Shown piece by piece: positions 1-45,258 of a stretch of 64,000 bases of DNA (position 1 is its first letter; every line of letters starts with the position of its first letter). This DNA comes from a virus. Under the pieces are notes generated by a model, which was not told the DNA's origin, ran no database searches, and worked only from the letters and a program-made list of their open reading frames with translations. The position numbers were made by a program, and so were the translations under genes. The stretch is taken from the IMG/VR virus record IMGVR_UViG_3300035492_000206, one strand, 5' to 3'.

Positions 1-1
1 C

Positions 2-21200: not shown

Positions 21201-22286
21201 GCCCGTGAGGTGTCGTCCGCGTGGGATGAGCTTGGGCGAAGCAGCGTGCGCAGCGAGCAGGGCATTCAGGACGGGCAACGTTATCTGATGGGGTTTGTGG
21301 ATGCAGGCGTGCGCGAAATCGGCACAGCGAAGAAGGGCGCAGCAACTGTATACGGCCTGCGCAACAACGATGGTTTGATCTCTGTAAGCGGCAAGAGCTT
21401 CAACCGCTTCCTGAAGGCGGCTACGGCTTACGGCGGCTTGATGCCTGCGCTTGAGCTGGTTGGTGCAGTAGCGACCAAAAGCCAGGAAGAAGAGGTGGCT
21501 CAGGGTGTGGGTGCTGAGGCGGTAAGCGATCCTGAGCAGGCACTGCAACAGGCGCGCGAACAAACCGATAGAGATCCAACCGATGAGCAGAAGGTAAGCG
21601 GCGACTACCAGAAGGGAGAGCTGAACGCCTTTGGCTTGACCCTGGCAATTGAAAATCCAAAGGGGCATGTCCGATCCGGCAAGAATGAAGGCGGGGACGA
21701 ATGGCAGGTAAGCATGGCGCACGACTATGGCTACATCAAGGGAACCAAAGGCCTGGACGGTGACGAAGTGGATGCTTTTATCGGCCCCAATCTCGAAAGC
21801 GAGAAGGTTTTTGTGATCGAGCAGGTGGATTCGGCGGGGGTGCTTGATGAGCACAAGGTAATGCTTGGGTTTGATGACGAAGAGAGCGCAAAACAGGGAT
21901 ACCTGTCCAGCTACAAAGCAGGCTGGGATGGTCTCGGTGCTATTCGCGAAATGAGCCTTACTGAGCTGAAAGAATGGCTGCCGACTGCCGGCGGGAAATC
22001 CATGCCTTCGCTTGAGCCTGAGCCAGCAGCTGAGCCAGAACCGGTAGAGCCTGAAGCGATGACTGAGCCTGATCAGCAAGCGGTGGAGCCCGAAAAGCAA
22101 GCTGATACCGACTACCTGCAGTCCATCATCGATCAGACCATTGCCGATCCGCTGGCGTCCGATATCGCCGATAAGCTGGGCGAAATCTTCGGTCGCAACG
22201 CCGGTGATGCCGAAATGGAAACCCTGATCGAACAGGCCGCTATGGCCTATCAAAATGCCGTCATGCAGGCCACTGCCAACCTCTAA
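18204..22286 (+). CDS. darA: DarA-family polyvalent internal head protein (DarA_N, DUF2958-like, LPD3-like, inorganic-pyrophosphatase-like, DarA_C)
   Basis: DarA_N: VFELADGQTVSVYFHNPD...MISWKWLLNKKDITIVVAPE. DUF2958-like: DWFITE..QAFGYADMG.GGELGYISIDEL..VELDLYF (~19040-19280). LPD3-like ~19880-20240. iPPase-like: IENPKG..RSG..HDYGYIKGT.G.DGDEVD..DEHKVMLGF (~21585-21980). DarA_C: DTDYLQSII... Confidence 0.85.
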   Translation: MKHSVAWTEQNEPIGLSLDQLLYRMRRHDSQDGLLFDSVTLNEILQEEGVEQFAFDALVSPFSKLKRKMDILSRTMDRAIDGYGVIAMQVSDPFKRNGVAQVAAVFELADGQTVSVYFHNPDNTPGKLAPTDEMISWKWLLNKKDITIVVAPERGNDLQIREVARRIMKLAQKNSAAFAKANAKRAERLEMIEGLRTEISDLEYELSDLQDQIEVAKVEAESRAMAPYKAVKAAGMAALNSFRKFLSRSQYRAMVEAIEGEEGAGMADRAKALAAIIEGMAATYDQDGKGDNATVYLHYFQNSADWFITEKDAQGGTQQAFGYADMGQGGELGYISIDELTKNGVELDLYFDPKPLKAVKPSSAGTDEAEADLAKAHAELDGRIDALSDDEAQRMAQALELKVGAGKDSRDVIKQQHPDDQRRGLELIASQSEASESTDPTTPEGYAAIMDDEAALTAVQDQLDSHFQARMIEVRNALRELGWEGERFKTLSKNGVEAVFDLIQVGAGANVAGMTINGIRDDLSKTPAELAAEVDALAEPVIEIAKSYRNYVDDADGDLFEAAKAFFKAELQGKVVKTVIGDVHMTGGGFREMKRGMKSDELKARLLPSVPDILSSGRYDGRSELHKPRNDGYVAFHFFEKEVELDALIVTAGVNVGERNDKALTYTAYGLGYEGGIGWKNKAASGGVLDAASFRGKVFRGPGVPSEPTTKPGSTSFPLLTMDSSVGANDEILNLVILKVVDKTTGEELTEYEDAQEVEPIESDGIEEVLDEPTAEQVLINDFYQAIQDETAHIESAIAGIDWDAITDVETGNEQAGALRDAVKGYQPVAKALEQLGANGINDGNASLAKVFDSDAYQARDEAMLKLRETVDSIHDLGKDRLRKAGEAELASLPEDASLEDVAKAIFRKHGIDLGEATSGRAAAIVEGIEEKNAEMLRGVLLAGNNPASNEIFEYATGIKLAKTQKQRGVQIDDWAGISEQQRADIEAAKVADREAEELAREVSSAWDELGRSSVRSEQGIQDGQRYLMGFVDAGVREIGTAKKGAATVYGLRNNDGLISVSGKSFNRFLKAATAYGGLMPALELVGAVATKSQEEEVAQGVGAEAVSDPEQALQQAREQTDRDPTDEQKVSGDYQKGELNAFGLTLAIENPKGHVRSGKNEGGDEWQVSMAHDYGYIKGTKGLDGDEVDAFIGPNLESEKVFVIEQVDSAGVLDEHKVMLGFDDEESAKQGYLSSYKAGWDGLGAIREMSLTELKEWLPTAGGKSMPSLEPEPAAEPEPVEPEAMTEPDQQAVEPEKQADTDYLQSIIDQTIADPLASDIADKLGEIFGRNAGDAEMETLIEQAAMAYQNAVMQATANL
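20241..20280 (-). terminator. Minus-strand intrinsic terminator inside darA
   Basis: Perfect 10-bp inverted repeat AAGCCGCATC (20248-20257) / GATGCGGCTT (20271-20280), followed on the minus strand by TGTTTTT. Confidence 0.7.
20241..20369 (-). ncRNA. Predicted ~130 nt antisense RNA inside darA
   Basis: Minus-strand promoter at 20376-20404, 8-bp 5' hairpin (20318-20325 with 20360-20367), and an intrinsic terminator at 20241-20280. The ends are predicted. Confidence 0.55.
20376..20404 (-). promoter_or_regulatory. Minus-strand sigma70 promoter inside darA
   Basis: TTGAGA (20404-20399), 17 nt spacer, TACACT (20381-20376). Confidence 0.65.
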
Positions 22287-22292
22287 GGACGA

Positions 22293-23999
22293 ATGATGAA
22301 TCTTTTTTTCGATGCTACCGAAAGTAGCAAAGCTAAATCGACGCTTGCCAGGCTCCGCCTGGTCGGCGCTTTGGCCAAGGTACGCAAAGATATCCTGGCG
22401 CTGGGTGCGGGGGCTGGCAATATTGTCCAGCGCCTGCAACTGGCCAAAGAAGCCTTGAGCCTGCGTGAGCAGCTGGGCGAGCTTGATGCACCCAACGATG
22501 TTGAATCAGATAATGAACCCGACCGGGAAGCCATTCTGGGCGTATTCAGGCAGCTTGGGCGTGACTACCCAGATCGTAGTATGTCTGTTGCAGGGAATTT
22601 GGCGGGCAGCGTGGTGGCGCTGATCCGTGAGGCAGTAGGGCGCGAGGTCATGCCAGAGGAGCTGAGGCAACTGGTCAGCATGGAGGATCGACGCGCCGCC
22701 TATCGAGAAGGCCAGCGGTCTGTCGACCCTGTCGCAAGCGCCGTTGTTGCCATGCACGATGTGATTGAGGCACAGGCTGATGTCCCTGCTGCTGTCGTGC
22801 GCGACGATATCGGAGCGGTTGACTTTATCTGGGGCGAAGAGGGCAAGGAGCCGACTGCATCCGGTAAGCGCAAAGGTGCCAAGGGTGTGGCGCATATCCT
22901 TGAGGCACGAATGCGCAAGGATGGCCTGAGCCTGGAGGAGGCTGCCGCTGTGGCAGAGGAAGTGGCAAAAGTGGTCGCTACAGGCGAGATTACACTAACC
23001 CATCACCATCAAGATGTGAGCCAAGCTACCATTACAGACGGCAAGTACTCTGCAATCATGGTGAAGCGGGAAGGTAGTAATGCATGGCTGCTGACAGGGT
23101 GGGAAGAAAATAAGGATTCCGATGCCACTGGCAAGGGGGATGACAAAACCAGCGCTACGCACTCCGGGCCTACACCTGCCCGTCCCGGAGAGGGAGCGGA
23201 ACCCTCTGATATCAATATAGCACAATCTCAGGATGAAGGTCAGCCGACCGATGAAGGCAGTGCGTCTACAATAGCTGCCCACGGCCTCGCACTGGAGGTG
23301 CCGGCCATTGATCAGCAGCTGATAGATGATTACAACCGCACGACTCATGTATTTGGTGGCCGCGACTTCAATGCAGAACTCCGCAGCGAAGCGGAAAGCC
23401 TTTTGAATGAACTGGTCGAGCGAAACCACACGCTGGATACCCCGGAGCAGCAGGCACTGGCCAAAGAGCTGATCGAATCCTACCTGCAGGCCCAAGCGGA
23501 GTTCGCGCAGTGGAATGCGCGCTTCAGCACCAGTAACCCATCTTGGATTGTGACTGGCCGCAGTGGTCGCGACATGGGCAAGTACAATCGCGCCAATGAG
23601 CGGCACATGGATGAATACACCCGGCGCGTTGACCAGTTGCAGGCCCAGCGTGACCGCATAGGCGAAACGCTCTACAAGATGCGCCCCCAAGAGGTTCAGG
23701 TAGAACAAGCACTGGGCTCGGACTTGCGCGGCATTACCCAACAGGCCGGGCATATTCTGGGTTATTTGGAGGAGGGTAAAGCCGCGCTGGTTGCGGAAAC
23801 CCGCAAATGGGCCGCACCTAAAGCGCACAAGTTGATCGAGCGCAGCCTGACTGTCGACCGTAACCGCACCCTTGAGCATATCCGCGAGCTGGAAAACTCC
23901 AAGTCCGTACAGGATGCCGGTGGTTTGGCCAAGGTGTTCGGCCCTCGCTCAAAGGCAGGCAAGCTGGTGGAGACGCTTCTGAGTGAGCCTGACTCTTGA
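22293..23999 (+). CDS. Second polyvalent head-targeted protein with a BECR/barnase-colicin-like (PBECR) nuclease domain
   Basis: N-terminal LARLRLVGAL...RLQLAKEALSLREQLG leader. DIGAVDFIWG..KGVAHILEAR..SAIMVKREGSNAWLLTGW domain (~22780-23110). SWIVTGRSG..KYNRANERH segment typical of polyvalent proteins. Confidence 0.65.
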   Translation: MMNLFFDATESSKAKSTLARLRLVGALAKVRKDILALGAGAGNIVQRLQLAKEALSLREQLGELDAPNDVESDNEPDREAILGVFRQLGRDYPDRSMSVAGNLAGSVVALIREAVGREVMPEELRQLVSMEDRRAAYREGQRSVDPVASAVVAMHDVIEAQADVPAAVVRDDIGAVDFIWGEEGKEPTASGKRKGAKGVAHILEARMRKDGLSLEEAAAVAEEVAKVVATGEITLTHHHQDVSQATITDGKYSAIMVKREGSNAWLLTGWEENKDSDATGKGDDKTSATHSGPTPARPGEGAEPSDINIAQSQDEGQPTDEGSASTIAAHGLALEVPAIDQQLIDDYNRTTHVFGGRDFNAELRSEAESLLNELVERNHTLDTPEQQALAKELIESYLQAQAEFAQWNARFSTSNPSWIVTGRSGRDMGKYNRANERHMDEYTRRVDQLQAQRDRIGETLYKMRPQEVQVEQALGSDLRGITQQAGHILGYLEEGKAALVAETRKWAAPKAHKLIERSLTVDRNRTLEHIRELENSKSVQDAGGLAKVFGPRSKAGKLVETLLSEPDS

Positions 24000-24013
24000 T
24001 GATGCTAAAGGTA

Positions 24014-24045
24014 TCGAGTGACAGGCATGGTGTCCTGTCACTCGA
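24014..24045. terminator. 12-bp perfect hairpin between convergent genes
   Basis: TCGAGTGACAGG (24014-24025) / CCTGTCACTCGA (24034-24045). No T-tract on either side. Confidence 0.55.
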
Positions 24046-24061
24046 CCGGCTATAGGCGGGA

Positions 24062-27052
24062 TCAGAGTCTTACGCTTTTGGCGCGCCCAAAGCACTCATC
24101 AATCACGAATGTGACACCATCCTGGTCTCGCAGCGATATCTCCATGCTTGCGTGCTCATCCAGACCCATTTCTGCTGCAATCCTTGGCAGCTGATCAAGC
24201 GAAGGCGACAGCATATCCCAGCAGCCGACTTTGTCGTTGGGGCGAATCTCAACATCTTCCGTTACGTGCCATTCTGCCCAATCTCGCGCCAATCCCGATT
24301 CATTCAAGGCAGGTGAATGGATCTCGAAATACAGGTTCTGATGCCGGTCATACCGGGCGCGAAATCGCACTGTTGGTTGAGGATCGTGCCGAAGATTGAA
24401 ATCGATATAGTGACGACGCGTCAGCCATGCAAGTGCTGTCTTCGATGGGGCGCACCCTGTAATAACCTGCGCTTCAGCTTCAGCCAGCATGCGTTTGGCT
24501 TGATTCTGATCATCCTGCGCCAAAGCGCACATTGCACCATTGTGACCGAACACAAGCGTAGGCGTTATAACAAGTCCTGCCGCCTGCCAGCCGCTGGCAC
24601 CGGCTAGTAGTGCGGCCATTGATTGATCGTTGTGAGTGTATATATTCGCATTGCCCGGATACCTGAAGCAGTCAGCACACCCCTTCAATGATCGAAGATT
24701 ACGATCAAGGATGGCGATATTGGGTGCCTGGACATGCAGGCGTCGATGTCGATTGACGCGCCCCGCGATCTGCACAATGGATGCCGTTGAGGACGGCTCA
24801 ATCACAGACCAGTCAAAATCATGATCGCGACCGACTTCTTCCACTGGCGTAGCCACAACTACAAAGACCAGATCTTCTTCCGGAGCCTGTCGGATCATAT
24901 GATCAAGCTCTGCATCCTGAAAGATGTGTTCGTTCCCTCGCTTGCGGTTAAAAAGCCTGTCCAGTGCGCTTTCCTTCACCCATCGGCGCAACCGGAAATC
25001 CTCAGAATGGTAAGCCGACACCCGGTAGCCTGGCTCGCTCTGCAGCCGGGTAGCTATCTCTACGCAAGGTTCGATGTTGGCAACCCGGACAACGCCGAAA
25101 GAGACGCGCTTACCTGATGGGTGCAACCATGCATGATTGTGGTGCAGTTGTTGTATTGCGGCGCTGATCGAGTGTTGAAATCTATCAATTGGCGTTTCGC
25201 CTTCAGCAACGGTCTGTATGTACGCCAAGCGATAACAGGGTTCCTGGTGTAGGTGGTCGGCAAGCCCATCAAGCCACTGCGCAATGATTGGCTCAATCTC
25301 ATCCGAAGCCCCTGTATGGCTTGAGGGTGACTGGTAGTTGTCTACCAGTGTGATATGGCAGCCTACATGCGAGTGGTGATTGATGGCGCCATGCATGTGC
25401 GCACCGGCCTCAAATGCACGCACCACTGCAGCAGCACATCCCTGCGTGAGTGTCGCGCTGGAGACGATGACGTTACACCCAAGCAGGGCCGCCATTTCAA
25501 TCAGTCGCATCACCGCACCTAGGGATTGAGGGCTGTAATTATCAATTTCATCAAGAATCAAATCACTGCCTGCCACGCGCAGAGCCGCCGTTACATGATG
25601 GCCCTGGCGACCGGGGTTACCCGCATCAATCAGGTAGTCGAGTGTGGATACCAAAAGCGGGGTCCCGAGCAGGGCGCACGTTTTTTCTTCTGAACGGCAG
25701 CCGCCGTAGGTTTCAGCCCATTCACGCACCCACTTTGGGCAAGCAGGATCCACGTTGCCACCAATCTCCCAGATCGCGCGCCCATCAGCCGTGTCGGTTT
25801 CATCCTCATCCTCGTCCACAGCGCCAAGCTTTGCACGCGTGGTGTCGTGTGCCGCCTTCAGAAAGGCATCCCCCATTACGGTTGCTACTTGCTGCCTGGG
25901 CAGGCCAAGGTCTGCGCAAATCGCTTCACCCGTTTGCAGCGTAAGCGAGCGCAAGTTCAGGCCAATAGATATGCGTAACGGCGCTTCTGGTGCTGTCATT
26001 GCATCGGCTATCATCAGGTTGGCGCGCGTCTTCCCCGTGCCGGTGGACGCTGCGTTCAGTACAAGGCGGGGAGTGTTTCGCTGTTCGGGATGCTCATATT
26101 GCGAACGGATATGGTTGACCGCGTCCCGCTGCCAGGCAAAGCGAGATTCAGTACTGTCGCCATGTAGGCGTGCGCGCGCAGCGGTCGAAAGACCTGCAAG
26201 CCCTTCAATTTTGGCCAGCTTTTCTACCCAGCTGGCGGCTTCCTGACCAACGTGCTCAAGATGCCAGTCCAGCGGCTGATCAAGTTTACGCCCGACCCCG
26301 TTATTATTCGGTTTGGTGTTGGCATACAGGCGGTCACTCATGCTATCCACGATTAAGTCACCAGCCATTGAGCGGCTGGACACCTGATGATCTGCGGCAA
26401 TCAGAGCCATTCGGACTATCATGCCCAAACCCTTCCAGTAAGGCGCTTGCTGGTGTTCTTGCGCGGGCAGGTCCGCATCAATACGCTGAAGCACATCCCA
26501 GAGCGCGCTTTCAAGGCTTTCAGGGAAGCCCTGCGTATCGGACGGCATTTGCTTAAACGCATCGACTGGCTGATCGATGAATGGCCTGACATGCGTCTCC
26601 GCCATGGGAATGACCGATCTGTCTTTGTGGCTTGATCGCGCCGTTGGCCCCAACAAGCCGTGGTGTGTCATTACAGCAAAATCGACAACATCGTCAGCCT
26701 TGCATACGGGCGCGACAACAGTCTGCTTAATCATCCGATGGCCCTGCTGCAGGGGCTGCATAAATGCAGGTAGCCGCTCTATGCCATCATCCGCCATTAC
26801 GTGCCAAGCATCCTTCAATGTGGGCGGCGGGGCGGCATTGCCTGCATCGGCACTTTTCTGCCAGGCGCGCATCATGCCTCGCCATGTTTCCAGTACCCGC
26901 ACCGAGATCCACTCATGCCGGATTCGGTCACCACTCAATGCAGACTGCTGTCCACGCAGCTTTTCTTGGAAATGCACAGTGGCTTTCCCAATGTCATGGC
27001 TCAAGCCTGCCGCGCGAGCCAGGAGTGAGGCGAGGTTGGCCCAGCTATTCAT
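24062..27052 (-). CDS. cas3: Type I-F Cas3 HD-nuclease/helicase lacking the N-terminal Cas2 domain
   Basis: LSHDIGKA at residues 17-24, THHG, AADHQVS, ASTGTGKTRAN, LILDEIDNY, SSATL, VVATPVEEVGRDHDFDW and QIAGRVNRHR. Confidence 0.93.
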   Translation of the reverse strand: MNSWANLASLLARAAGLSHDIGKATVHFQEKLRGQQSALSGDRIRHEWISVRVLETWRGMMRAWQKSADAGNAAPPPTLKDAWHVMADDGIERLPAFMQPLQQGHRMIKQTVVAPVCKADDVVDFAVMTHHGLLGPTARSSHKDRSVIPMAETHVRPFIDQPVDAFKQMPSDTQGFPESLESALWDVLQRIDADLPAQEHQQAPYWKGLGMIVRMALIAADHQVSSRSMAGDLIVDSMSDRLYANTKPNNNGVGRKLDQPLDWHLEHVGQEAASWVEKLAKIEGLAGLSTAARARLHGDSTESRFAWQRDAVNHIRSQYEHPEQRNTPRLVLNAASTGTGKTRANLMIADAMTAPEAPLRISIGLNLRSLTLQTGEAICADLGLPRQQVATVMGDAFLKAAHDTTRAKLGAVDEDEDETDTADGRAIWEIGGNVDPACPKWVREWAETYGGCRSEEKTCALLGTPLLVSTLDYLIDAGNPGRQGHHVTAALRVAGSDLILDEIDNYSPQSLGAVMRLIEMAALLGCNVIVSSATLTQGCAAAVVRAFEAGAHMHGAINHHSHVGCHITLVDNYQSPSSHTGASDEIEPIIAQWLDGLADHLHQEPCYRLAYIQTVAEGETPIDRFQHSISAAIQQLHHNHAWLHPSGKRVSFGVVRVANIEPCVEIATRLQSEPGYRVSAYHSEDFRLRRWVKESALDRLFNRKRGNEHIFQDAELDHMIRQAPEEDLVFVVVATPVEEVGRDHDFDWSVIEPSSTASIVQIAGRVNRHRRLHVQAPNIAILDRNLRSLKGCADCFRYPGNANIYTHNDQSMAALLAGASGWQAAGLVITPTLVFGHNGAMCALAQDDQNQAKRMLAEAEAQVITGCAPSKTALAWLTRRHYIDFNLRHDPQPTVRFRARYDRHQNLYFEIHSPALNESGLARDWAEWHVTEDVEIRPNDKVGCWDMLSPSLDQLPRIAAEMGLDEHASMEISLRDQDGVTFVIDECFGRAKSVRL

Positions 27053-27942
27053 GACGTTATGGCCTCCATGCTCACAGCCACCGGATCAATGCAGTCAGAT
27101 GTGACCGCTTTGGGTTGCAGGTGGCGCTGCCGAAAATGGAATAGCGACGCATCATCCAACAGGATGCGGTTCTGGCTATCCAGGCCAAGCTCGCGGCGGG
27201 CAGCCAGTGACTGGTCAGGCGTCATCTTGGGGTTCAGTGAGACGACATACCAGCGGCCCGTCGCACGGCCAATGCCTGAATCTTTGATTGCGTCAATCTG
27301 CAGCTGAATGCTTGGCGTGATCGAGAGGGGGCGAAGTTCGAGCATGCGGAAAAGAACAAATTGCTTTAGAGGGGCGGTTAGTACGTCTTGAGCATCAAAT
27401 TCATCAAAGTCATACCCGGTTACTAGCAGTTGATCAGCAATGCGATGCAATGCGACCGGGTAGATGCATCGCCACCGCGCCTGATCATTCTTTTTCCTGC
27501 CTACATAGCGCACCGAGAAGGCTTTTTTGTGCACCATTGCGTGAAGCAGGGGGGTGTAATCGACCTCATCAGGGAGGCGCTGCGCCCGAATCTTGCCGTA
27601 CTGAACGCTGAGGCTTCCCACAACGCCTGGCGCATCATCAATATCAAGCCCAGCCTGCAGCCGTGTGATGGGGCTAAACAGGATCTCATTCAGGATGGAG
27701 TTGGCGCTGTTCGGGTCTCGTGTATCCAGGGCGACATAACTATGGGGCCGGTAGCAGCGTTTGTCCTGATAAATCAAGTTGCTGTAGGCCGAGCACATCT
27801 GATTGAGAAGGCGATACTTCGTTGCAGCCGAGCCCTCACTGATGCCGTCCAGATCACTTCGGCGGAACTGACCGGTGTGGATTGTCCGGCGCAAAACGTA
27901 GCGTTCGATCATGTCCTGTTGGTAGATAGTTGCAGATGACAA
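27049..27942 (-). CDS. WYL-domain transcriptional regulator (BrxR/CapW-like)
   Basis: LLHAMVHKKAFSVRYVG...RCIYPVALH...LLVTGYD...QFVLFRM is the WYL core. SLNPKMTPDQ..ARRELGL is a CapW-like C-terminus. TTG start with GAGGAG SD. ATGA-coupled to cas3. Confidence 0.75.
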   Translation of the reverse strand: MSSATIYQQDMIERYVLRRTIHTGQFRRSDLDGISEGSAATKYRLLNQMCSAYSNLIYQDKRCYRPHSYVALDTRDPNSANSILNEILFSPITRLQAGLDIDDAPGVVGSLSVQYGKIRAQRLPDEVDYTPLLHAMVHKKAFSVRYVGRKKNDQARWRCIYPVALHRIADQLLVTGYDFDEFDAQDVLTAPLKQFVLFRMLELRPLSITPSIQLQIDAIKDSGIGRATGRWYVVSLNPKMTPDQSLAARRELGLDSQNRILLDDASLFHFRQRHLQPKAVTSDCIDPVAVSMEAITS

Positions 27943-28017
27943 GTTCCAATCTCCTCAAAAAGATAATTCACTTAAAACCATAGAGTTAAATATATATCAA
28001 AATGAAAAATAAAAGAA

Positions 28018-28046
28018 TTGCCACAGGATGAAAATAACTCTAGTCT
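28018..28046 (+). promoter_or_regulatory. Putative sigma70 promoter of the csy operon in the AT-rich divergent spacer
   Basis: TTGCCA (28018-28023), 17 nt spacer, TAGTCT (28041-28046). Confidence 0.55.
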
Positions 28047-28111
28047 AGTGCTCATCGAACAAGCAACGGGAGGATGGCGCGGAGTCATGGACACCAGCGC
28101 CGGGCAAAAGA

Positions 28112-29239
28112 ATGAAAAACTCAGAGCAGCAAAGCGCGCTATCCAACTGGATACTGGACAACCTGGTGCATTTCTCGAACAAGCTCACAAACTCAAACGC
28201 ACCGGGGGGCGGTATTCGGCTGTCAGGCATACAGGCCCTTGACCTGCCTTACGTGAGTGCACGAACGCACCTGCACGACATCAACCGTAAAGCGACCGGG
28301 GCACTTATTGAGCTGGATTACGTAAAGCCCACAAATATCCGGATGAAGGATGTTCGGGTATGCCTGGGCGAGGAAGTCATCAACCCGCCAGAGCTTGATC
28401 TTGCTAAGGATCAGATGAGCGAAGTTGCCGGTGTGTACTTGGATGCAGCATCAGGCCGGCATCCCTGCAAAGTTGCCGACCCGAAGGCACAGACTTTGTC
28501 GCGGCTGAAGCAGATTCTATTGCCACTACCTGAGGATGAGGCTTATTTGGCGGTAAGCCCGCTCAGTGCAGCAGGCATGGCAAAGCTGCTCAATGACACC
28601 TACGCCGCGCGCTTCGACCAGAGCGAGCAGGGCGACAATGGAAAAGGCTTGATCCCCAGGGTGCGTTCATTTCCCTATGGCGGAGACAAGCCGCAGAACG
28701 TGGGCTCTCGCGTCAATGAAGGCTTGAGCCGTCCATTCGTGTTTGATCGCGTGCCCCGTGAAAATGATGACCTGAAATACGCGCATCGCCTGTTTTATCG
28801 TGGCCTAACCTTGCGACTGCCTAAAGCGCTAATCATGGACTACAAGTCATTCCTCGACAGCGTGCGCAGAGAAGGGCGCGACTTGAAGGTATGGCCTGCC
28901 TCGCTCAAGCGTGCAGAGCGTGCCTATCTGCAGCCTCTATGGGGGAGCTGGGAGAATCAGGCCAGAAAGGCTAGGCGCGTACTGGAAGAACACGCAGCTT
29001 CACTGCCGGATTCAAATCCCGCATGGCATGGCGAGACCGAAGAAGCCCGGTTTCAGGCTGGGTGGTTGATGCCTTCAGCGCGAGGGCATGAGTGGAAGAA
29101 ACAAGCAGCTCGCCGATTTGCCAGCCTGCTTTCAGCCAGTCGTGTCGCTGCCGGGCGTGACGGCGAGTCTGGACGGATCGCGTTGAGCCCTACCGATCAG
29201 CACCGCGTTGCCAGTGCAGTCCTGGAGGGCTTCAGATGA
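28112..29239 (+). CDS. csy1: Cas8f (Csy1), divergent
   Basis: KQILLPLPEDEAYLAVSPLSAAG and YGGDKPQNVG motifs. First gene of the csy operon. Confidence 0.82.
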   Translation: MKNSEQQSALSNWILDNLVHFSNKLTNSNAPGGGIRLSGIQALDLPYVSARTHLHDINRKATGALIELDYVKPTNIRMKDVRVCLGEEVINPPELDLAKDQMSEVAGVYLDAASGRHPCKVADPKAQTLSRLKQILLPLPEDEAYLAVSPLSAAGMAKLLNDTYAARFDQSEQGDNGKGLIPRVRSFPYGGDKPQNVGSRVNEGLSRPFVFDRVPRENDDLKYAHRLFYRGLTLRLPKALIMDYKSFLDSVRREGRDLKVWPASLKRAERAYLQPLWGSWENQARKARRVLEEHAASLPDSNPAWHGETEEARFQAGWLMPSARGHEWKKQAARRFASLLSASRVAAGRDGESGRIALSPTDQHRVASAVLEGFR

Positions 29240-30120
29240 ACAAGCGTTATCTATTGCTTCCACGACTGGATGTGCAGCGCGCAAACGCAATGGTGACTGC
29301 GGGTGTGATCTCACTATGTCCTGTCATGCCAGCAGTGCTCATGGGCGAGGCTTTCGGACATGCAACAGGTGCGTTCCCAGAAGGGGTGATGCTTGTCCAC
29401 CATGACGCTTACCTGCTGGCTGATCAAAGCCTTGACCAAGCCCGACCGGGTGGCACTGAGTACTATCCGCATCAATTCCGGGGCGCGACAGCGTTCAACG
29501 GTAAAGATATAGCGGGTGGTGACAAGAAAACACCATCCAACTCGATCCAGCCAACGGCCAGCATGAATGGCACCTGGTCAGTGATCATGTCATTCGACGC
29601 AGATCAGATTGATGCCGACAGTCTGCTGTCAGCCGCAACGCAATTTCTTGGACGTATGGCACGGCTTGCCGGTGGCGTGATTACACACTTTGAAAAGCCT
29701 CAGGTGCAAGATGATCTGGCGGGTATTCTTGCTGCATGCCGAAGTGGTTTTGTGGCTATCGACCGGTCGCCTTGGCTGGTATCGGACACACAGACGCGCA
29801 TCGAGCGTTTGCTGGCGCACACCGATGGAAGCGTTCAGCCCGAGCATCAGGGAAGGCGTCGCTGGCTGGTCCCGGCTGCTCTGGGGTATGCCCTGCTAAC
29901 AGATCCTGTCGATACGGCTGGCGCGCGTAATGGCTTGCCCCATGCGTTCGCAGAAGTGCTCCTGGGGTTGGTGGAGCTGGTCAGCATCCGGCAAACATCC
30001 GCTTTCCCCACGCAAAACGAAACACAGGATATAACACTGATTGAATCATGCTTTTGGCGGCAAAACTGGCCAACACAAGACGTTTTTTTATTGAATCAAG
30101 AGGAGCCCAGCAATGGCTAA
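29236..30120 (+). CDS. csy2: Cas5f (Csy2)
   Basis: LLLPRLDVQRANA, RLAGGVI, WLVPAALGYALL, RNGLPHAFAE.LLGLVE. Confidence 0.88.
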   Translation: MNKRYLLLPRLDVQRANAMVTAGVISLCPVMPAVLMGEAFGHATGAFPEGVMLVHHDAYLLADQSLDQARPGGTEYYPHQFRGATAFNGKDIAGGDKKTPSNSIQPTASMNGTWSVIMSFDADQIDADSLLSAATQFLGRMARLAGGVITHFEKPQVQDDLAGILAACRSGFVAIDRSPWLVSDTQTRIERLLAHTDGSVQPEHQGRRRWLVPAALGYALLTDPVDTAGARNGLPHAFAEVLLGLVELVSIRQTSAFPTQNETQDITLIESCFWRQNWPTQDVFLLNQEEPSNG

Positions 30121-31186
30121 AGTAATGGCAAAACTACCCGGTGTAACCAGCTTCACCCGTCGCAGTGTGATCAGCGATGGCGCATTTTACAGTCTTGTTG
30201 ACGGGGTTGAAGTACCCCTGCCGGTTGTGCGTCACGGAATTCGTGGCACTCAGAACATCAATAACACAAAGGAGCGCGAACCCTCGCAGATCCAGGTAAC
30301 TGAAACAGCGCGCACAGAAGTGAATGCCGACGCCTTCCTGGTGCGGTTCAATCTGCGCTTTCTGCCGCTACAAGAAGGCTTGCACGCGTGTGCGGTCAAT
30401 AAGCAGACCGACAAGGCGTTAACAGAGGCGCTGCGGGCGCAATACGAGGCATTCGTGAGCGCTGCCCGCAACAGTGATGGCTTGGCTGAGGTGTCTCTTC
30501 GCACCGCGCGGAATATCCTCAATGGTCGCTGGCTCTGGCGCAACCGTAGCCTGGGCGAAGCAATCGAGATCAGCGCCAGTACGCAGGACAAGCGCATAAA
30601 CATAGACGGGTTTGATGCGCTTGAGCTGCCGCTGAATGCCTTTGGCGATTACACCCGTGAAGAGCAGCAGCTGGGTGACTACATTCAGCACATGCTTCAG
30701 GGCGAAGCCACTGGCGGCATGACGATTGAAGCGCGCGTAAGCCTTGGGTTCACGGGATCGGTCGAAGTATTCCCCTCGCAGAACTATGTGTCCAAAAAGC
30801 CCAAAGGCTTTGCCCGGCCACTGTATAAGCTGGGAGTGGCCGACAAGTCGCGCACGTTTACTACCGCTGATGACATGCTGGATTACAGTGATATTCGGCG
30901 CATAGGGCAGGCTGCACTGCGTGACCAGAAGATTGGCAATGCGCTGCGCACCATTGATACCTGGTATCCAGACGCGCAGGCGCATGGCTATCGCCCGATT
31001 CCGGTTGAGCCAGAAGGTGCAAACTTGGACTCAATGTCCATGCTGCGCAAGCACAAAGGCGCAAACAGCCCGTCTGCATTTGCACTGGCAACGCGCATGG
31101 CCGAGCTTGACCCAAACAGCGCAGACGGCATGTTCCTGATCGCTGCCTTGATGCGTGGCGGCGTATATGGCGAAGCAGGCGAATAA
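30113..31186 (+). CDS. csy3: Cas7f (Csy3)
   Basis: VRHGIRGTQN, NILNGRWLWRN, EVFPSQ and QKIGNALRTIDTWY. Confidence 0.95.
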   Translation: MAKVMAKLPGVTSFTRRSVISDGAFYSLVDGVEVPLPVVRHGIRGTQNINNTKEREPSQIQVTETARTEVNADAFLVRFNLRFLPLQEGLHACAVNKQTDKALTEALRAQYEAFVSAARNSDGLAEVSLRTARNILNGRWLWRNRSLGEAIEISASTQDKRINIDGFDALELPLNAFGDYTREEQQLGDYIQHMLQGEATGGMTIEARVSLGFTGSVEVFPSQNYVSKKPKGFARPLYKLGVADKSRTFTTADDMLDYSDIRRIGQAALRDQKIGNALRTIDTWYPDAQAHGYRPIPVEPEGANLDSMSMLRKHKGANSPSAFALATRMAELDPNSADGMFLIAALMRGGVYGEAGE

Positions 31187-31216
31187 TGAGGCCCTTGAAA
31201 AGAACGGAGGAAGCCG

Positions 31217-31810
31217 GTGCCCAGCTGGCGTCGGCGACACATGATGAAGCACTACATGGATATTCGATTGATACCTTCCGCAGGCATGACGCCCCCAACA
31301 CTGGCGGCAGAGGTGGTCAAGAAAGTACATGCATGCCTTCAGGTACACCCTGGTGCCATCGCGCTCGCACTGCCTGAGTGCGCAGCCGGACCGGATCGCA
31401 AGATCGGCACGCTGGTCAGGTTATTTGCCACGGACGCAAGTCACTTGAATGCGACTGCAGACGAAATTGAGGCACATAAGGCAATCAGTGGCATGGCGGT
31501 TCCAACGCGTATCCGCGAAGTACCCGCCGAGACTACACGGTGGGTAGCATACACGCGTTTCAGGCTGCCAAATCGACGCCGACAGGCCAAAGACACCGAT
31601 GCCTTTGCAGTCAGGCGGCAGCAGCTACGCGCCGAGCGCATGGCGGTCATCGACACACTGCCCACGCTGTATATGTCATCTGCCACCAATGGGCATCGCT
31701 ATGGCATGGGTATTCAGGTGGTGGAGTGCGACCATGCGTCACCACAGGGCACTCTTAATGGTTACGGACTATCCAGTCAATCAAGCCCGTTCTGGCTACC
31801 GATGGTATGA
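31217..31810 (+). CDS. cas6f: Cas6f (Csy4) crRNA endonuclease
   Basis: HYMDIRL...VKKVH (catalytic His), Arg-rich helix, LYMSSATNGHRY and C-terminal GTLNGYGLS. Start is GTG 31217 or ATG 31241. Confidence 0.9.
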   Translation: MPSWRRRHMMKHYMDIRLIPSAGMTPPTLAAEVVKKVHACLQVHPGAIALALPECAAGPDRKIGTLVRLFATDASHLNATADEIEAHKAISGMAVPTRIREVPAETTRWVAYTRFRLPNRRRQAKDTDAFAVRRQQLRAERMAVIDTLPTLYMSSATNGHRYGMGIQVVECDHASPQGTLNGYGLSSQSSPFWLPMV

Positions 31811-31944
31811 CGTACCCAAAAAAAACGACCAAGGTGCAACTCAATGATATCAGTGCGTTTTTTCAGGGTGTGTTTTTTATGGGTAAATTGGCGGGAGGAC
31901 CGATTGCGCTTGTGTAATCACGGCCTTATAGTGAAATCGCTGTA
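31811..31944 (+). promoter_or_regulatory. CRISPR leader with its own sigma70 promoter
   Basis: A and T tracts as in I-F leaders. TTGCGC (31904-31909), 17 nt spacer, TATAGT (31927-31932), ending 12 nt before repeat 1. Confidence 0.7.
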
Positions 31945-32452
31945 CTTCACCGCCGTGTAGGCGGCTTAGAAATCGAAACCATGCGTCTGCGATCTCCTGC
32001 CGGTCTTCACCGCCGTGTAGGCGGCTTAGAAACCTGTCTGGCACCTTCTCGCTTGATTCAGCCCCTTCACCGCCGTGTAGGCGGCTTAGAAATGAGATGG
32101 GACACCCTCAAGGCGGGGCCTTACCTTCACCGCCGTGTAGGCGGCTTAGAAAATACGCGCCTGCGTCTCTGCGGCTTGCTCCAGCTTCACCGCCGTGTAG
32201 GCGGCTTAGAAAGTTCCAGCGTGGTTTCATCAAGCCGGACGTTCCTTCACCGCCGTGTAGGCGGCTTAGAAAAGCATCGATTTAGCACCGCTTCTTGCGG
32301 CATCCTTAACCGCCGTGTAGGCGGTTTAGAAATCGCAGAGCGCACGCAGGCTGTTGAGGCTTGCTTTCACCGCCGCGTAGGCGGTTTAGAAAAACGAGAA
32401 GGCCGAAGTGGGTATCAACCTGCACTTCACCGCCGCATAGGCGGATTACTTG
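31945..32452 (+). CRISPR. Type I-F CRISPR array: 9 repeats (28 bp, CTTCACCGCCGTGTAGGCGGCTTAGAAA) and 8 spacers of 32 bp
   Basis: Exact 60-bp period, repeats starting at 31945, 32005 ... 32425. Repeats 1-6 are identical and 7-9 progressively degenerate. CCGCC-GTGTA-GGCGG hairpin typical of Cas6f substrates. Confidence 0.98.
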
Positions 32453-32709
32453 CAGGTAGTTGAATGCAGGTCATGACTGGCCTGCATAGCCTGCCAGCTC
32501 TCGGGGGTTGTACCGGTCATGGCGGCAATGCTGCCCGCCAATCCGACATCGCACGGCACGTTACCGCCAATGAATGCTTGCAGGAGTGCAGCATCAACAG
32601 CCATCTGCCGGGATGCTTCGGTCAAGCTCAAGCCCAGCGGGTCGAGTACGTCAGCCTTGAGCGCAATGCCAGGATGAACCGGCTTGCGGGTACGAATGCG
32701 ATTATTCAT
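32446..32709 (-). CDS. higA: HigA-family HTH antitoxin (orphan)
   Basis: PVHPGIALKADVLDPLGLSLTEASRQM...GTTPESWQAMQASHDL is the HigA signature. Confidence 0.85.
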   Translation of the reverse strand: MNNRIRTRKPVHPGIALKADVLDPLGLSLTEASRQMAVDAALLQAFIGGNVPCDVGLAGSIAAMTGTTPESWQAMQASHDLHSTTCK

Positions 32710-32912
32710 ATTTCGAGATCCTTGAATAGCGCGTTGGCACTGTCAAACCGCTTCCCTATGCCGGATTCCAGCTCATCCATCGCGCAAACGGTGATTGCGG
32801 CTGGAGTCTGCGGAGTATCGGCTGAGAATGACCGGGACGGCTGGCGTTCACCACGGTGAATTTCGTCCATCCGCTGCACGCTTTCCATCAGGTCATCAAA
32901 AAAACGGCTCAT
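32706..32912 (-). CDS. Chimeric antitoxin-like peptide (HTH-antitoxin-type N-terminus, RelB/DinJ-type C-terminus)
   Basis: MSRFFDDLMESVQRMDEIHRGERQPSR joined to PAAITVCAMDELESGIGKRFDSANALFKDLEI. ATG at 32912, ATGA-coupled to higA. Confidence 0.55.
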   Translation of the reverse strand: MSRFFDDLMESVQRMDEIHRGERQPSRSFSADTPQTPAAITVCAMDELESGIGKRFDSANALFKDLEI

Positions 32913-32946
32913 GGCAGTTAGCTCTTTTGCGATCGTATGAAGCCAT

Positions 32947-32975
32947 AGTGTATGCACCAGGCGAGAAACAGGCAA
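32947..32975 (-). promoter_or_regulatory. Sigma70 promoter of the antitoxin pair
   Basis: TTGCCT (32975-32970), 17 nt spacer, TACACT (32952-32947). Confidence 0.65.
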
Positions 32976-33011
32976 TGGGACGATTTGCACCCCTGATCTG
33001 GTTTGTTAACC

Positions 33012-33059: not shown

Positions 33060-34601
33060 ATGGCTACCAAATCCAAAACGCAGCGACGCGGCATATTCTC
33101 CTCTCTGTTCGGCGGCAATACCAAAGCTTACACAGACGAGACAGCGTCAGCGAGCGACATTAAACAGTCGGATACCACCCTATACGGCGCGGGCATGACC
33201 ACGGTCGCCAGTTTGATGGCGTCCGGAAATCGCAAGGCTCGCACCCGTCAAGCCATCTATGACCAATGGTCGATGATGGAGGCGAACCCGATTGTATCCA
33301 CGTCCGTTCAACTGCTGGTGACAGCTGCGCTGGGCGGGCATGAGACCAACGGTAGCCTGGTGTTCATCGAGGAGCGGCCCGGATTCAACGACGATCAGAA
33401 AATGTCGGATTTGGTGCGTGAAGTGCGGGACGACCTTTCCGATCTGTTCAATGCAGTGGCGTTTCAGGTGGCGTATCTTGGGGCTAACTTTGGCGATGCC
33501 TACGCGCGCGTTTACAGCGAAGACAAAAAGGGTGTTGTCGACCTGTACGTGGGTGAAATGATCCGTCCGCCGCTGGTGCAGCCATTCGAGCGCGGCTCCC
33601 GCACGGTGGGCTTTGCGGTCTACACCGGTGAGAAGAACTTTCAGCGCCTCGATAAAACCCAGATGGTGCGCATGAAGATGCCGCGCACGCAATGGATTCC
33701 CCAGCACGGCGTGGTCGAAAAGTCGCTGAAACTTGCGCTTGAAGAGGACAATATCGACAACCTGCCGCTTATGCCCGCCATGGCCGGCGGTTCGCTGCTT
33801 TATGCTGCCGAAGAGCCCTATAACAACCTGGTGTCGAGCCTGCTGGGGCTGGTGGGCCAGCGCTGGATGGACTCCATCGATGAGCAGATGCTTACTGTCA
33901 ACCTGAATGACATGAGCAAGGCGCACCAGAAAAAGTTCATCGAATCGATCACGGCAATGCTCAAGCGCTCGAAAGAAGTGGCTGAGGATGCGGTTAAGGG
34001 TGGACGCCCAATCCTGGAGCGCATTCGGCACGTCATCCCTGTGTTCGGTGACAAGCAGCTCACGACTATTCAGGCGCCCAACGGTGGCCAACCGGGCCGC
34101 GCGGCCAATATCGGCATCGAAGACATCATGCTGCATGCGCGATTGCTGGCCGGTGCGCTGGGTGTCGATCTATCCATGGTCGGCTTTGCTGATCAGATGA
34201 GCGGCGGCTTGGGGGAGGGCGGCTTCTTCCGTACCAGTGCCCAAGTGGCTGAGCGCGCGCGCGTCATCCGCGTAGCCCTGTCCGAATTCTTCAATCACGT
34301 CATCGACATTCACACGCTGAAGAAATACGGCGTTGTGATCCCTGCATCCGAGCGGCCTTGGCAGATCAATTTCTTCGGCTCCATATCGGCGCTTGAGGCC
34401 GAGAAGCAGCGCACCCGCTCCGAAGGCATGAGTGTGGGCTTGATGCTGATTCAGGCCATTCAGCAGCTCAAGGATATGGGTGTCAGTGAGGAGATGGCAG
34501 CCAACTACCTGACTGACCTGATGCAGCTGGATGAAGAGCAGGCCAAGCTGTATGCAAAAACCGTTGCGGCACCGAAGGATGACGATGATGGGTATGTTTG
34601 A
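33060..34601 (+). CDS. Portal protein, P1 Prt-like
   Basis: GIEDIMLHARLLAGALGVDLSMVGFADQMSGGLGEGGFFRT matches the P1 Prt motif as I recall it. ATG at 33060. Confidence 0.85.
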   Translation: MATKSKTQRRGIFSSLFGGNTKAYTDETASASDIKQSDTTLYGAGMTTVASLMASGNRKARTRQAIYDQWSMMEANPIVSTSVQLLVTAALGGHETNGSLVFIEERPGFNDDQKMSDLVREVRDDLSDLFNAVAFQVAYLGANFGDAYARVYSEDKKGVVDLYVGEMIRPPLVQPFERGSRTVGFAVYTGEKNFQRLDKTQMVRMKMPRTQWIPQHGVVEKSLKLALEEDNIDNLPLMPAMAGGSLLYAAEEPYNNLVSSLLGLVGQRWMDSIDEQMLTVNLNDMSKAHQKKFIESITAMLKRSKEVAEDAVKGGRPILERIRHVIPVFGDKQLTTIQAPNGGQPGRAANIGIEDIMLHARLLAGALGVDLSMVGFADQMSGGLGEGGFFRTSAQVAERARVIRVALSEFFNHVIDIHTLKKYGVVIPASERPWQINFFGSISALEAEKQRTRSEGMSVGLMLIQAIQQLKDMGVSEEMAANYLTDLMQLDEEQAKLYAKTVAAPKDDDDGYV

Positions 34602-45236: not shown

Positions 45237-45258
45237 TCTTAGCGCTTTGCGCTTTGCT

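What the first reader, a model, noticed from the sequence alone, without database searches (positions are those of the whole stretch)
24062..32452. Phage-encoded, interference-only type I-F CRISPR-Cas inserted in the virion morphogenesis region
Seen: intact cas3, csy1-3, cas6f and an 8-spacer array between the dar-like genes and the portal, with no cas1, no cas2 and no Tn7 genes. Known: ICP1's I-F system includes cas1 and cas2-3, and transposon I-F3 systems lack cas3. Phage systems without adaptation genes are reported, so the class is not new. The specific combination of Cas2-less Cas3, WYL regulator and temperate P1-like carrier appears unusual. Inference: a weapon for phage-phage competition or lysogen defence.
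Basis: partly seen in the sequence, partly recalled or inferred. Interest (0 to 1): 0.88.

Follow-up and report, generated by a model that had tools for sequence, protein, structure and literature searches.

The report
Phage CRISPR weapon aimed at sibling phages

Summary
Window 24062-32452 holds cas3f, a WYL regulator, csy1-4 and a 9-repeat/8-spacer I-F array between Dar-like virion genes and the portal.

A metagenome contig (L191) joins the two window ends. The phage genome is therefore 71,772 bp, and none of it encodes Cas1 or a Cas2 domain.

Cas3 starts exactly where the Cas2 domain ends in its nearest relatives. Its HD and helicase motifs are intact.

The regulator folds like CapW/BrxR.

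57 related phages were fetched from IMG/VR. Only one other carries the locus, and most of the rest have a ~2150-aa darB at that site.

Three of the 8 window spacers match sibling phages: two sites in darB (best match 1 mismatch) and terS. So do five of the 10 spacers of the sister allele, which add the portal. Every match with 6 or fewer mismatches in darB or the portal has a 5'-CC PAM. The phage's own copies are absent, or diverged and without a PAM.

The inter-phage competition reading is supported in silico.

The carrier has P1-like virion genes but an integrase and a CI/Cro switch, so it is not a plasmid prophage.

Loss of cas1 and Cas2 is derived within a mobile-element-associated I-F clade. 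I rate it a new variant of a known kind. This scan has previously noted adaptation-less type I-C and I-E loci on phages, but none of type I-F.

The parts
22030..30900 (.). Block shared at 99.3-100% nucleotide identity with the sister phage allele (IMG/VR contig 3300029199_000244). The left flank has no detectable similarity and the right flank is about 83% identical. This is a recently exchanged cassette: PBECR1 gene, cas3, WYL, csy1, csy2 and most of csy3.
   Evidence: the same breakpoints appear in two further metagenomes (loose ends at 22047 and about 30926-31118)
22293..23999 (+). PBECR1-domain polyvalent protein (568 aa). Only its first ~66-78 residues match the N-terminal leader of DarB in sibling phages. 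It occupies the start of the darB slot.
24062..27052 (-). cas3f: HD nuclease-helicase, 996 aa, without the N-terminal Cas2 domain. Catalytic motifs are intact.
27049..27942 (-). CapW/BrxR-family wHTH-WYL-WCX regulator (297 aa). Its stop codon overlaps the cas3 start codon.
27943..28111 (.). AT-rich divergent intergenic region between the WYL-cas3 and csy operons. It is the presumed control region; no promoter or operator was identified.
28112..29239 (+). cas8f (csy1), 375 aa, from a rare divergent clade. The C-terminal helical bundle is retained. It has a deletion of about 35 aa relative to its siblings.
29236..30120 (+). cas5f (csy2), 294 aa
30113..31186 (+). cas7f (csy3), 357 aa
31217..31810 (+). 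cas6f (csy4). The likely true start is the ATG near 31241. It is only 68% identical to the cas6f of the sister allele.
31811..31944 (+). CRISPR leader. It shares motifs with the leaders of the sister allele and of the complete sister system L008, but not with a chromosomal I-F leader.
31945..32452 (+). CRISPR array: nine 28-nt repeats and eight 32-nt spacers. The six leader-proximal repeats are identical and the last three have drifted.
32153..32184 (+). Spacer W4. It is shared with the sister allele (2 differences, at positions 12 and 24). It has a remote match in codon phase to the terS of relatives. The phage's own terS copy has 9 mismatches and a GC flank.
32273..32304 (+). Spacer W6. It matches the 5' end of darB in the nearest sibling (4 mismatches, CC PAM). 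The phage's own homologous site, 22314-22345, has 8 mismatches and a CA flank.
32393..32424 (+). Spacer W8, the oldest. It matches the darB helicase motif in 24 related phages with a CC PAM. The best match has 1 mismatch, at position 12. There is no darB in this genome.

Best explanation
This is a working, interference-only type I-F CRISPR-Cas cassette carried by an integrative temperate myovirus. It is used mainly against closely related phages.

Shown by sequence:
- The locus encodes a full Csy complex (Cas8f with helical bundle, Cas5f, Cas7f, Cas6f).
- It encodes a stand-alone Cas3f whose HD and helicase motifs are intact but whose Cas2 domain is cleanly missing.
- It has a CapW/BrxR-type WYL regulator and a polarised array.
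- The 71.8-kb genome has no Cas1 and no Cas2.
- The cassette, together with a PBECR1 gene, sits where siblings carry darB.
- Its spacers match darB, the portal gene and terS of those siblings, and every match with 6 or fewer mismatches in darB or the portal has the I-F PAM 5'-CC.
- The phage's own copies of these targets are absent, or mismatched and without a PAM.

Inferred:
- Cas6f processes the array transcript.
- The Csy complex finds CC-flanked protospacers in an incoming or resident sibling genome.
- The Cas8f helical bundle recruits Cas3, which degrades that genome. This gives superinfection exclusion in the lysogen and/or removal of a resident rival.
- The WYL protein represses both operons until a DNA-damage or ssDNA signal arrives.
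- New spacers come in trans, from Cas1-Cas2/3 of a same-clade system in the cell, or by recombination between arrays.
- The cassette spreads between sibling phages by homologous recombination.
For: - Gene identities and intact motifs.
- Absence of the Cas2 domain and of Cas1 across the closed genome.
- Purifying selection and deep conservation of the Cas2-less layout. csy3 dN/dS is 0.14 against the sister allele. The L005 lineage has Cas3 64%, WYL 73% and Csy1 60% identical with the same gene order next to a PBECR1 gene.
- Regulator fold.
- Cas8f helical bundle: the top two of 48,161 chains are AcrIF3 (Z 7.0) and the Csy1 helical bundle (Z 6.8).
- Site replacement: 55 of 57 portal relatives lack the locus, and the closest ones have a 2150-2190-aa darB directly upstream of the portal.
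- Targets:
  - W8 matches darB in 25 relatives. All 24 matches with 6 or fewer mismatches have a CC PAM; the best has 1 mismatch.
  - W6 matches the darB 5' end (4 mismatches, CC).
  - Sister-allele spacers L4 (darB) and L5 (portal, 3 mismatches, CC) also match. About 7e-6 matches with 4 or fewer mismatches are expected by chance in the 1.1 Mb searched (my estimate).
  - W4/L8 and L2 match terS.
- Self-avoidance.
- Cassette exchange.
- The allele is found in tar-pit, hydrocarbon, gas-well, wastewater and aquatic metagenomes. Array contigs differ there beside identical cas pieces.
Against: - No experiment, no RNA data and no identified host.
- Five of the eight window spacers (W1-W3, W5, W7) have no target in INPHARED, PLSDB, the fetched relatives or IMG/VR exact scans.
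- The terS matches are remote (5-9 mismatches).
- Cas8f is recognised only weakly by HMMs, and its N-terminal 217 residues could not be modelled.
- No promoter or operator was found by the simple scans.
- The difference between the two arrays is partly due to a swap of the cas6f-leader-repeat module, so it does not prove ongoing acquisition.
Confidence: 0.8

Rival explanations
1. General lysogen defence. The system mainly protects the lysogen against unrelated phages and plasmids, and the sibling-directed spacers are a minority by-product.
For: Five of the eight window spacers have no identified target. CapW/BrxR-type regulators normally control host-protective defence systems.
Against: Every spacer that could be mapped (3 of 8 here, 5 of 10 in the sister allele) hits the same phage family, and none hits anything else. 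The oldest conserved spacer targets the gene that this cassette replaces.
Confidence: 0.1
2. Frozen relic. An adaptation-less remnant that no longer interferes and is carried passively.
For: There is no cas1 and no cas2. The distal repeats have drifted. The window Cas8f has a ~35-aa deletion relative to its siblings.
Against: All six ORFs are open with catalytic motifs intact. There is purifying selection. The Cas2-less layout is conserved down to 64% Cas3 identity. The six leader-proximal repeats are identical. Target matches have the correct PAM. The block has recently moved between phages.
Confidence: 0.05
3. Counter-defence decoy. The phage Cas proteins, for example a Cas2-less Cas3 or the Csy proteins, poison or hijack the host's own I-F system, as orphan viral cas genes do.
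For: Viral cas homologues acting as anti-CRISPRs are documented (bioRxiv 10.1101/2023.06.24.545427). The leader-proximal repeats of the sister allele are identical to chromosomal I-F repeats.
Against: This is not an orphan gene. It is a complete effector set with its own array, with intact nuclease and motor motifs and with spacers matching rivals.
Confidence: 0.03

Closest known systems
Type I-F CRISPR-Cas of Vibrio phage ICP1
   Same: It is a phage-encoded type I-F system, used offensively against a competing mobile element. Its Csy complex and Cas3 activity have been shown biochemically (PMC6452262; PMC10161043).
   Different: ICP1 is lytic. It keeps cas1 and a Cas2/3 fusion, targets the PLE satellite rather than sibling phages, and has a compact Cas8f without the helical bundle. 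Here cas1 and the Cas2 domain are absent, the helical bundle appears to be retained, a WYL regulator is present, and the carrier is temperate.
I-Fa CRISPR-Cas on the Acinetobacter baumannii phage-plasmid PPTOP (bioRxiv 10.1101/2023.09.20.558655)
   Same: A type I-F system carried by a temperate element that is proposed to fight a rival prophage.
   Different: The PPTOP system has cas1 and cas2_3 and two arrays, and it alternates with an R-M system. The carrier is an episomal phage-plasmid and the rival is an unrelated prophage. Here the system is adaptation-less, the carrier is integrative, and the targets are its own siblings.
Adaptation-less CRISPR-Cas loci of huge phages, and virus-borne mini-arrays used in inter-viral conflict
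   Same: They are phage-borne interference modules or arrays without cas1/cas2, with spacers against other viruses including close relatives.
   Different: Those are mostly on huge lytic phages or archaeal viruses and are of other subtypes. Here a 72-kb temperate phage carries a full I-F effector with Cas3, placed at the allelic position of the gene it targets.
Complete sister I-F systems of the same clade (L008/L009 and IMG/VR L187-L190)
   Same: They have the same clade of Cas3, Cas7f and Cas8f, a related repeat and related leader motifs. L008/L009 also have the same WYL regulator (52% identical) upstream of cas3 and divergent from the csy operon.
   Different: They keep the Cas2-Cas3 fusion (about 1090 aa). 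L008 and three of the four IMG/VR loci also have cas1 placed after cas6f, next to the array; the fourth locus (L187) ends at csy3.
CapW / BrxR WYL-domain regulators of CBASS and BREX
   Same: The full-length fold matches (Foldseek E 3e-11 to 1e-7). The size is similar (about 290 aa) and the gene lies next to a defence operon.
   Different: Sequence identity is only 13-20%. Here the protein is coupled to cas3 of a type I-F system. Its ligand and operator are unknown.

Membership tests
Type I-F CRISPR-Cas (I-F1 layout) | Cas7f (Csy3) backbone protein | tested here: met
   TIGR02566 scores 226 bits against a cut-off of 157.6; PF09615 E 2e-56
Type I-F CRISPR-Cas (I-F1 layout) | Cas6f (Csy4) endoribonuclease and a 28-nt I-F repeat | tested here: met
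   TIGR02563 scores 55 bits against a cut-off of 36. Rfam CRISPR-DR4 scores 40.1 bits against a gathering score of 35 on six repeats.
Type I-F CRISPR-Cas (I-F1 layout) | Cas5f (Csy2) | tested here: met
   PF09614 scores 35.7 bits against a cut-off of 25. The NCBIfam hit is below its cut-off.
Type I-F CRISPR-Cas (I-F1 layout) | Cas8f (Csy1) large subunit with a C-terminal helical bundle | tested here: inconclusive
   PF09611 scores 17.8 bits, below the 22.7 cut-off. Homologue P0126 carries PF09611. The C-terminal region 229-375 matches AcrIF3 and the Csy1 helical bundle at Z about 7. The N-terminal model has low confidence.
Type I-F CRISPR-Cas (I-F1 layout) | Cas3f HD nuclease-helicase | tested here: met
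   TIGR02562 E 8e-162. The score of 540 bits is just under the 566-bit cut-off because the Cas2 part is missing. Motifs are conserved relative to PDB 5b7i.
Type I-F CRISPR-Cas (I-F1 layout) | Cas2 fused to the N-terminus of Cas3 | tested here: not met
   The HMM and PDB alignments start at model position 104 and at residue 119. The Cas2 domain of the nearest relative finds nothing in the genome. The WYL stop codon overlaps the cas3 start codon.
Type I-F CRISPR-Cas (I-F1 layout) | Cas1 integrase | tested here: not met
   tblastn with the sister system's Cas1 gives a best E of 0.4 in the window and nothing in the gap. No Cas1 Pfam tag appears on the L191 genes.
Type I-F CRISPR-Cas (I-F1 layout) | 5'-CC PAM on protospacers | tested here: met
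   All matches with 6 or fewer mismatches in relatives' darB and portal genes have CC (Ideonella sequence read directly). This is in silico only.
Type I-F3 (Tn7-associated) | No cas3; tnsABC/tniQ adjacent | tested here: not met
   An intact cas3 is present. No transposase was seen among the annotated ORFs; the only recombinase is a tyrosine integrase 17 kb away.
Type I-F2 | No Cas8f; Cas5fv/Cas7fv variants | tested here: not met
   A 375-aa Csy1 homologue is present between the regulator and csy2.
CapW/BrxR-family WYL regulators | wHTH-WYL-WCX three-domain fold | tested here: met
   The AF2 model has pLDDT 90. The top 15 Foldseek hits are CapW and BrxR, aligned over about 280-315 columns, with E down to 3e-11.
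CapW/BrxR-family WYL regulators | Pfam WYL domain (PF13280) | tested here: inconclusive
   The protein itself scores 19.2 bits against a cut-off of 21.8. 44 of 50 aligned homologues match, with a best E of 5e-10.
CapW/BrxR-family WYL regulators | Ligand (ssDNA)-dependent derepression of the neighbouring operon | not testable with these tools
   No operator was found. This needs EMSA and reporter assays.
P1-like phages / phage-plasmids (Punavirus sense) | P1-type virion module (portal Prt, sheath, baseplate, Dar-like internal proteins) | tested here: met
   The portal is 28% identical to P1 Prt over 89% of its length. PHROG hits include sheath, baseplate and DarB-like families.
P1-like phages / phage-plasmids (Punavirus sense) | Plasmid prophage maintenance (RepA/ParAB, Cre-lox type) | tested here: not met
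   The genome instead has a tyrosine integrase, an S24 CI-like repressor, Cro, a DnaT-like initiator and a lambda-P loader. One relative is classed as a provirus and another lies inside a 709-kb replicon.

The most novel reading that the evidence does not exclude
The cassette may act as a natural CRISPR 'homing' or gene-drive-like element among sibling phages. Its conserved spacers cut darB, which is the alternative allele at the cassette's own locus. Repair of the damaged rival genome could use the phage's RecT/exonuclease pair (60364-62285) with the cassette-bearing genome as template. That would convert darB into the PBECR1 plus CRISPR-Cas cassette.

This would explain why the 8.9-kb block is 99.3-100% identical between phages whose flanks are unrelated or about 83% identical. 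It would also explain why the PBECR1 gene keeps only the darB leader as upstream homology.
Probability: 0.1. Interest if true: 0.9.

Novelty: new variant of a known kind. Interest (0 to 1): 0.6.

Why it matters
Phage-borne CRISPR-Cas is known mostly from ICP1 and from huge lytic phages. This case differs in four ways:
- An ordinary-sized temperate phage carries a full type I-F effector that has shed Cas1 and the Cas2 domain.
- The system is placed at the exact position of the gene it targets in its siblings.
- It sits in a block that has recently moved between phage genomes.
- It belongs to a mobile-element-associated I-F clade in which the Cas2 domain was lost repeatedly.

The locus gives a concrete system for three questions. 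How do temperate phages exclude close relatives with sequence-specific weapons? Can I-F Cas3 work without the Cas1-Cas2 partnership that normally restrains it? How do adaptation-less arrays stay current?

It may also be of practical interest as a compact I-F interference module with a stand-alone Cas3.

Tried and rejected
- Megablast of the locus against INPHARED phages and PLSDB plasmids gave no match.
- The window's own assembly is not held.
- A Cas3-based scan of GTDB genomes found no relative.
- Host identification from the repeat failed:
  - The window's repeat variant occurs in none of the 100 returned genome stretches. That list may be capped.
  - None of the 1013 spacers extracted from the first 80 of those stretches hits the window.
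- The 17 spacers of the complete sister system L008 do not hit this phage family.
- Exact IMG/VR scans, with N at every sixth position, found nothing for W1 and W2. For W4 they found only the sister allele's own array. I did not scan W3, W5 or W7.
- The metagenome scan for the repeat returned only a second assembly of the sister allele.
- Simple promoter and terminator scans and an inverted-repeat search of the divergent intergenic region gave nothing usable.
- The Cas8f N-terminal 217 residues could not be modelled with seven sequences.
- Look-ups of P0007 and of the window's TerL fragment found no contig.
- I first read the array difference between the two alleles as rapid turnover in 94%-identical phages. 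I rejected this after finding that the figure averages a 99.3-100% block and a swapped cas6f-leader module.
- The Aquirhabdus locus L104 is an unrelated I-F system.

Full report
OBSERVATION

- The leftward operon holds a 297-aa regulator (27049-27942) and a 996-aa Cas3f (24062-27052). The regulator's stop codon overlaps the cas3 start codon.
- The rightward operon holds csy1 (28112-29239), csy2 (29236-30120), csy3 (30113-31186) and cas6f (31217-31810).
- A 134-nt leader follows, then nine 28-nt repeats with eight 32-nt spacers (31945-32452). The last repeat is degenerate.
- Rfam calls the repeats CRISPR-DR4 on the + strand.
- Upstream lie a 1360-aa Dar-like internal virion protein and a 568-aa PBECR1 protein. 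Downstream lies the portal (phrog_1497, E 4e-168).

CAS3 WITHOUT CAS2, AND NO CAS1 ANYWHERE

The Cas3f HMM match begins at model position 104 of 1110. The alignment to P. aeruginosa Cas2-3 (PDB 5b7i) begins at residue 119. The HD, second His/Asp, Walker A (GxGKT), DExD and SAT motifs are conserved.

The N-terminal 100 residues of the closest Cas2-3 fusion (P0003) and the Cas1 of the same system find nothing in the window. For the Cas2 probe, only residues 100-120 align, at the Cas3 start. For Cas1 the best E is 0.4.

A JGI contig (L191) is 100% identical to window 62715-64000 at one end and to window 1-1553 at the other. It therefore bridges the window's two ends. The genome is 64,000 + 7,772 = 71,772 bp.

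The bridged 7.8 kb encodes an S24 CI-like repressor, Cro, a DnaT-like initiator, a lambda-P loader, NinB, YbcO, an HTH protein, TerS and the intein-bearing 5' part of TerL. It has no Cas1 or Cas2.

THE CARRIER

- The portal is 28% identical to P1 Prt. It is 61% identical to Xanthomonas phage Rb1, 65% to an element inside a 709-kb Ideonella dechloratans replicon, and 48% to an 88-kb Burkholderia vietnamiensis plasmid.
- The sheath, baseplate and tape-measure/lysin genes are of the same module.
- The genome also has a tyrosine integrase (49652-50920), a RecT/exonuclease pair, and CI/Cro.

It is thus an integrative, lambdoid-regulated temperate phage with a P1-like virion module, not a plasmid prophage. 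The host is unknown. The relatives point to Beta- or Gammaproteobacteria.

THE LOCUS REPLACES darB

In Rb1 and in the Ideonella element, giant virion proteins run directly into a small gene and then the portal.

An alignment-based scan fetched 57 IMG/VR portal relatives. Only L068, which lies on the sister-allele contig (the same contig as L001), carries the cas genes. Most of the others, including the closest (portal 86-94% identical), carry a 2150-2190-aa DarB directly upstream of the portal.

The window's PBECR1 protein shares only its first ~66-78 residues with those DarB proteins. The nearest sibling is G002 (67 kb, with terminal repeats). It is 93% identical in nucleotides over 14 kb of structural genes and has darB at this site.

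WHAT THE SPACERS HIT

- W8, the oldest window spacer, is identical to spacer 10 of the sister allele.
  - It encodes the DarB helicase motif NEKAEVGINL.
  - It gave weak hits to darB of P1-like phages and plasmids (28-30 of 32-33 positions).
  - In the fetched relatives it matches darB in 25 genomes. All 24 matches with 6 or fewer mismatches have 5'-CC immediately upstream.
  - The best match has a single mismatch, at position 12, in the nearest sibling.
- W6 matches the 5' end of darB in that sibling (4 mismatches, CC).
- Sister-allele spacers L4 and L5 match its darB and portal genes (4 and 3 mismatches, CC).
- W4 (about the same as L8) and L2 match two sites 55 bp apart in terS of relatives. 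These matches have 5-9 mismatches, mostly at third codon positions.

By my own estimate, about 7e-6 matches with 4 or fewer mismatches are expected by chance in the 1.1 Mb searched.

The phage's own sequences are safe:
- darB is absent.
- The W6 homologous site has 8 mismatches and a CA flank.
- The terS site has 9 mismatches and a GC flank.
- The portal site of L5 has a CG flank and a mismatch at seed position 3, in both alleles.

In a gas-well metagenome that holds the sister allele at high depth, two contigs match only the W8 spacer. On both sides they continue into darB-like sequence, and the flank before the match is GCT rather than GCC. This is a synonymous loss of the PAM and is compatible with escape.

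W1-W3, W5 and W7 remain unmatched.

THE REGULATOR

- Pfam WYL is below threshold for the protein itself.
- An exhaustive HMMER search gave 62 homologues, and 44 of 50 aligned ones hit PF13280.
- The AF2 model (pLDDT 90) has CapW and BrxR as its top 15 Foldseek hits, aligned over the full length (E down to 3e-11), followed by PafBC and DriD.
- The same regulator (52% identical) precedes cas2-3 in the complete sister system.

It is therefore an ancestral part of this I-F clade, not a replacement for cas1.

CAS8F

- Only six homologues exist at E below 1e-5 among 5.8 billion proteins, and one of them carries PF09611.
- The model is confident only for residues 220-375, an all-helical domain.
- The two best matches of that domain among 48,161 chains are AcrIF3, the known mimic of the Cas8f helical bundle (Z 7.0), and residues 302-433 of a solved Csy1 (Z 6.8).
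- These Z values are middling for helical proteins, so I treat the match as suggestive.

It implies that this system keeps the Cas3-recruiting bundle, unlike ICP1 (PMC10161043).

EVOLUTIONARY PLACE

- The closest Cas3 (P0002, 64% identical) is also Cas2-less. It sits in the same layout, PBECR1 - cas3 - WYL | csy1-3.
- The next relatives (P0003 and P0004, 51% and 44%) are full Cas2-3 fusions.
- P0003 has the order WYL-cas2/3 | csy1-4-cas1-array, with a related repeat.
- Four further IMG/VR contigs (Cas7f 44-47% identical) also have the Cas2-3 fusion. Three of them also have cas1 after cas6f; the fourth ends at csy3.
- In a 60-sequence tree, the window's Cas3 and P0002 form a supported pair beside P0003 and P0004.
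- In their 15-member clade, 7 members lack the Cas2 domain, scattered among fused sisters. In the mainstream I-F1 clade, 1 of 45 lacks it.

Loss of the adaptation parts is therefore derived and recurrent in this clade. Some of these cases could be start-codon miscalls.

MOSAICISM

The window and the sister allele (L001/L003) are 99.3-100% identical from 22030 to about 30900. Left of that there is no detectable similarity. Right of it, identity falls within the last 280 nt of csy3. Cas6f is 68% identical in protein, the leaders differ, and the region down to the portal is about 83% identical.

In the sister allele the five leader-proximal repeats are a different variant. That variant is identical to repeats of chromosomal I-F arrays in Panacagrimonas, Pseudomonas and an Ideonella MAG. 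The distal repeats are of the window type.

The leaders share motifs with the complete sister system L008 but not with the chromosomal leader examined.

I conclude that modules are shuffled by recombination. Spacer gain in trans, most plausibly by a same-clade Cas1-Cas2/3, remains an inference. L008 comes from the same metagenome as L191.

Pieces identical to the window allele occur in hydrocarbon and aquatic metagenomes, with different sequence around spacers W4 and W5. This hints at array variation beside identical cas genes. Contigs built over repeats are unreliable, however.

VERDICT

- The class, phage-borne and adaptation-less CRISPR-Cas used in inter-element conflict, is known.
- New here are the subtype (I-F with a stand-alone Cas3f), the temperate carrier, the allelic relation between the cassette and its main target darB, and the evidence that the cassette moves between sibling phages.
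- Interest 0.6; a new variant of a known kind.

Noticed in passing
window 44184-47299: A complete diversity-generating retroelement. The target is a tail-fibre-like gene (44184-45236) with its variable repeat at 45110-45227. An Avd-sized ORF lies at 45313-45795, the template repeat at 45838-45955, and the reverse transcriptase at 46073-47299. 13 of the 14 template-to-variable differences are at template adenines.
   Followed up: yes
window 1-1553 and 62715-64000; L191 1-10611: Contig L191 joins the two window ends at 100% identity, giving a 71,772-bp genome. The 7.8-kb gap carries CI-like and Cro repressors, DnaT-like and lambda-P replication genes, NinB, YbcO and TerS. TerL starts in the gap and contains an intein (Hom_end/LAGLIDADG), so the window ORF 89-1693 is only its C-terminal part.
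   Followed up: partly
L001 9733-9764 versus L001 10801-10832 and window 33192-33223: Spacer 5 of the sister allele matches the phage's own portal gene with one mismatch, at seed position 3. The flank there is CG instead of CC. Sibling phages have CC. This looks like a tolerated near-self spacer, or a past escape.
   Followed up: partly
run X5, laid on window 32393-32424: In a gas-well metagenome that holds the sister allele, two contigs match only spacer W8 and continue into darB-like sequence. The codon before the protospacer is GCT rather than GCC. This is a synonymous change that removes the CC PAM.
   Followed up: no
window 32446-32990 (- strand): Two small genes face the end of the array. 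One (32446-32709) hits phrog_1381, 'plasmid antitoxin with HTH domain'. The + strand ORFs 31981-32463 and 32464-32859 are probably spurious.
   Followed up: partly
window 28112-29239: The window's Cas8f lacks about 35 residues (alignment columns about 195-233) that all five closest homologues have. The sister allele carries the same deletion.
   Followed up: no
window 32153-32184 versus L001 9913-9944: The shared spacer W4/L8 differs only at positions 12 and 24. Both are 'every sixth' positions that type I Cascade does not pair, and both are also third codon positions in the target. Drift at unconstrained positions cannot be told apart from independent capture from target variants.
   Followed up: no
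window 49652-50920, 54082-55227, 57543-62285: A tyrosine integrase, an HNH endonuclease, and a recombination module (recombination-associated exonuclease, RecT-like annealing protein, exonuclease VIII-like).
   Followed up: no
Cas3 tree of P0001-P0060: In the 15-member clade around this Cas3, 7 proteins lack the Cas2 domain, scattered among fused sisters. This suggests repeated loss. One (L014) lies next to YqaJ/Gp3-like phage recombination genes.
   Followed up: partly
window 24062-32452 in public runs: The locus, or large parts of it, is held by runs from at least 10 studies: tar pit (probable source), gas well, rock and subsurface, hydrocarbon, wastewater and aquatic metagenomes. No RNA run was found.
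   Followed up: partly
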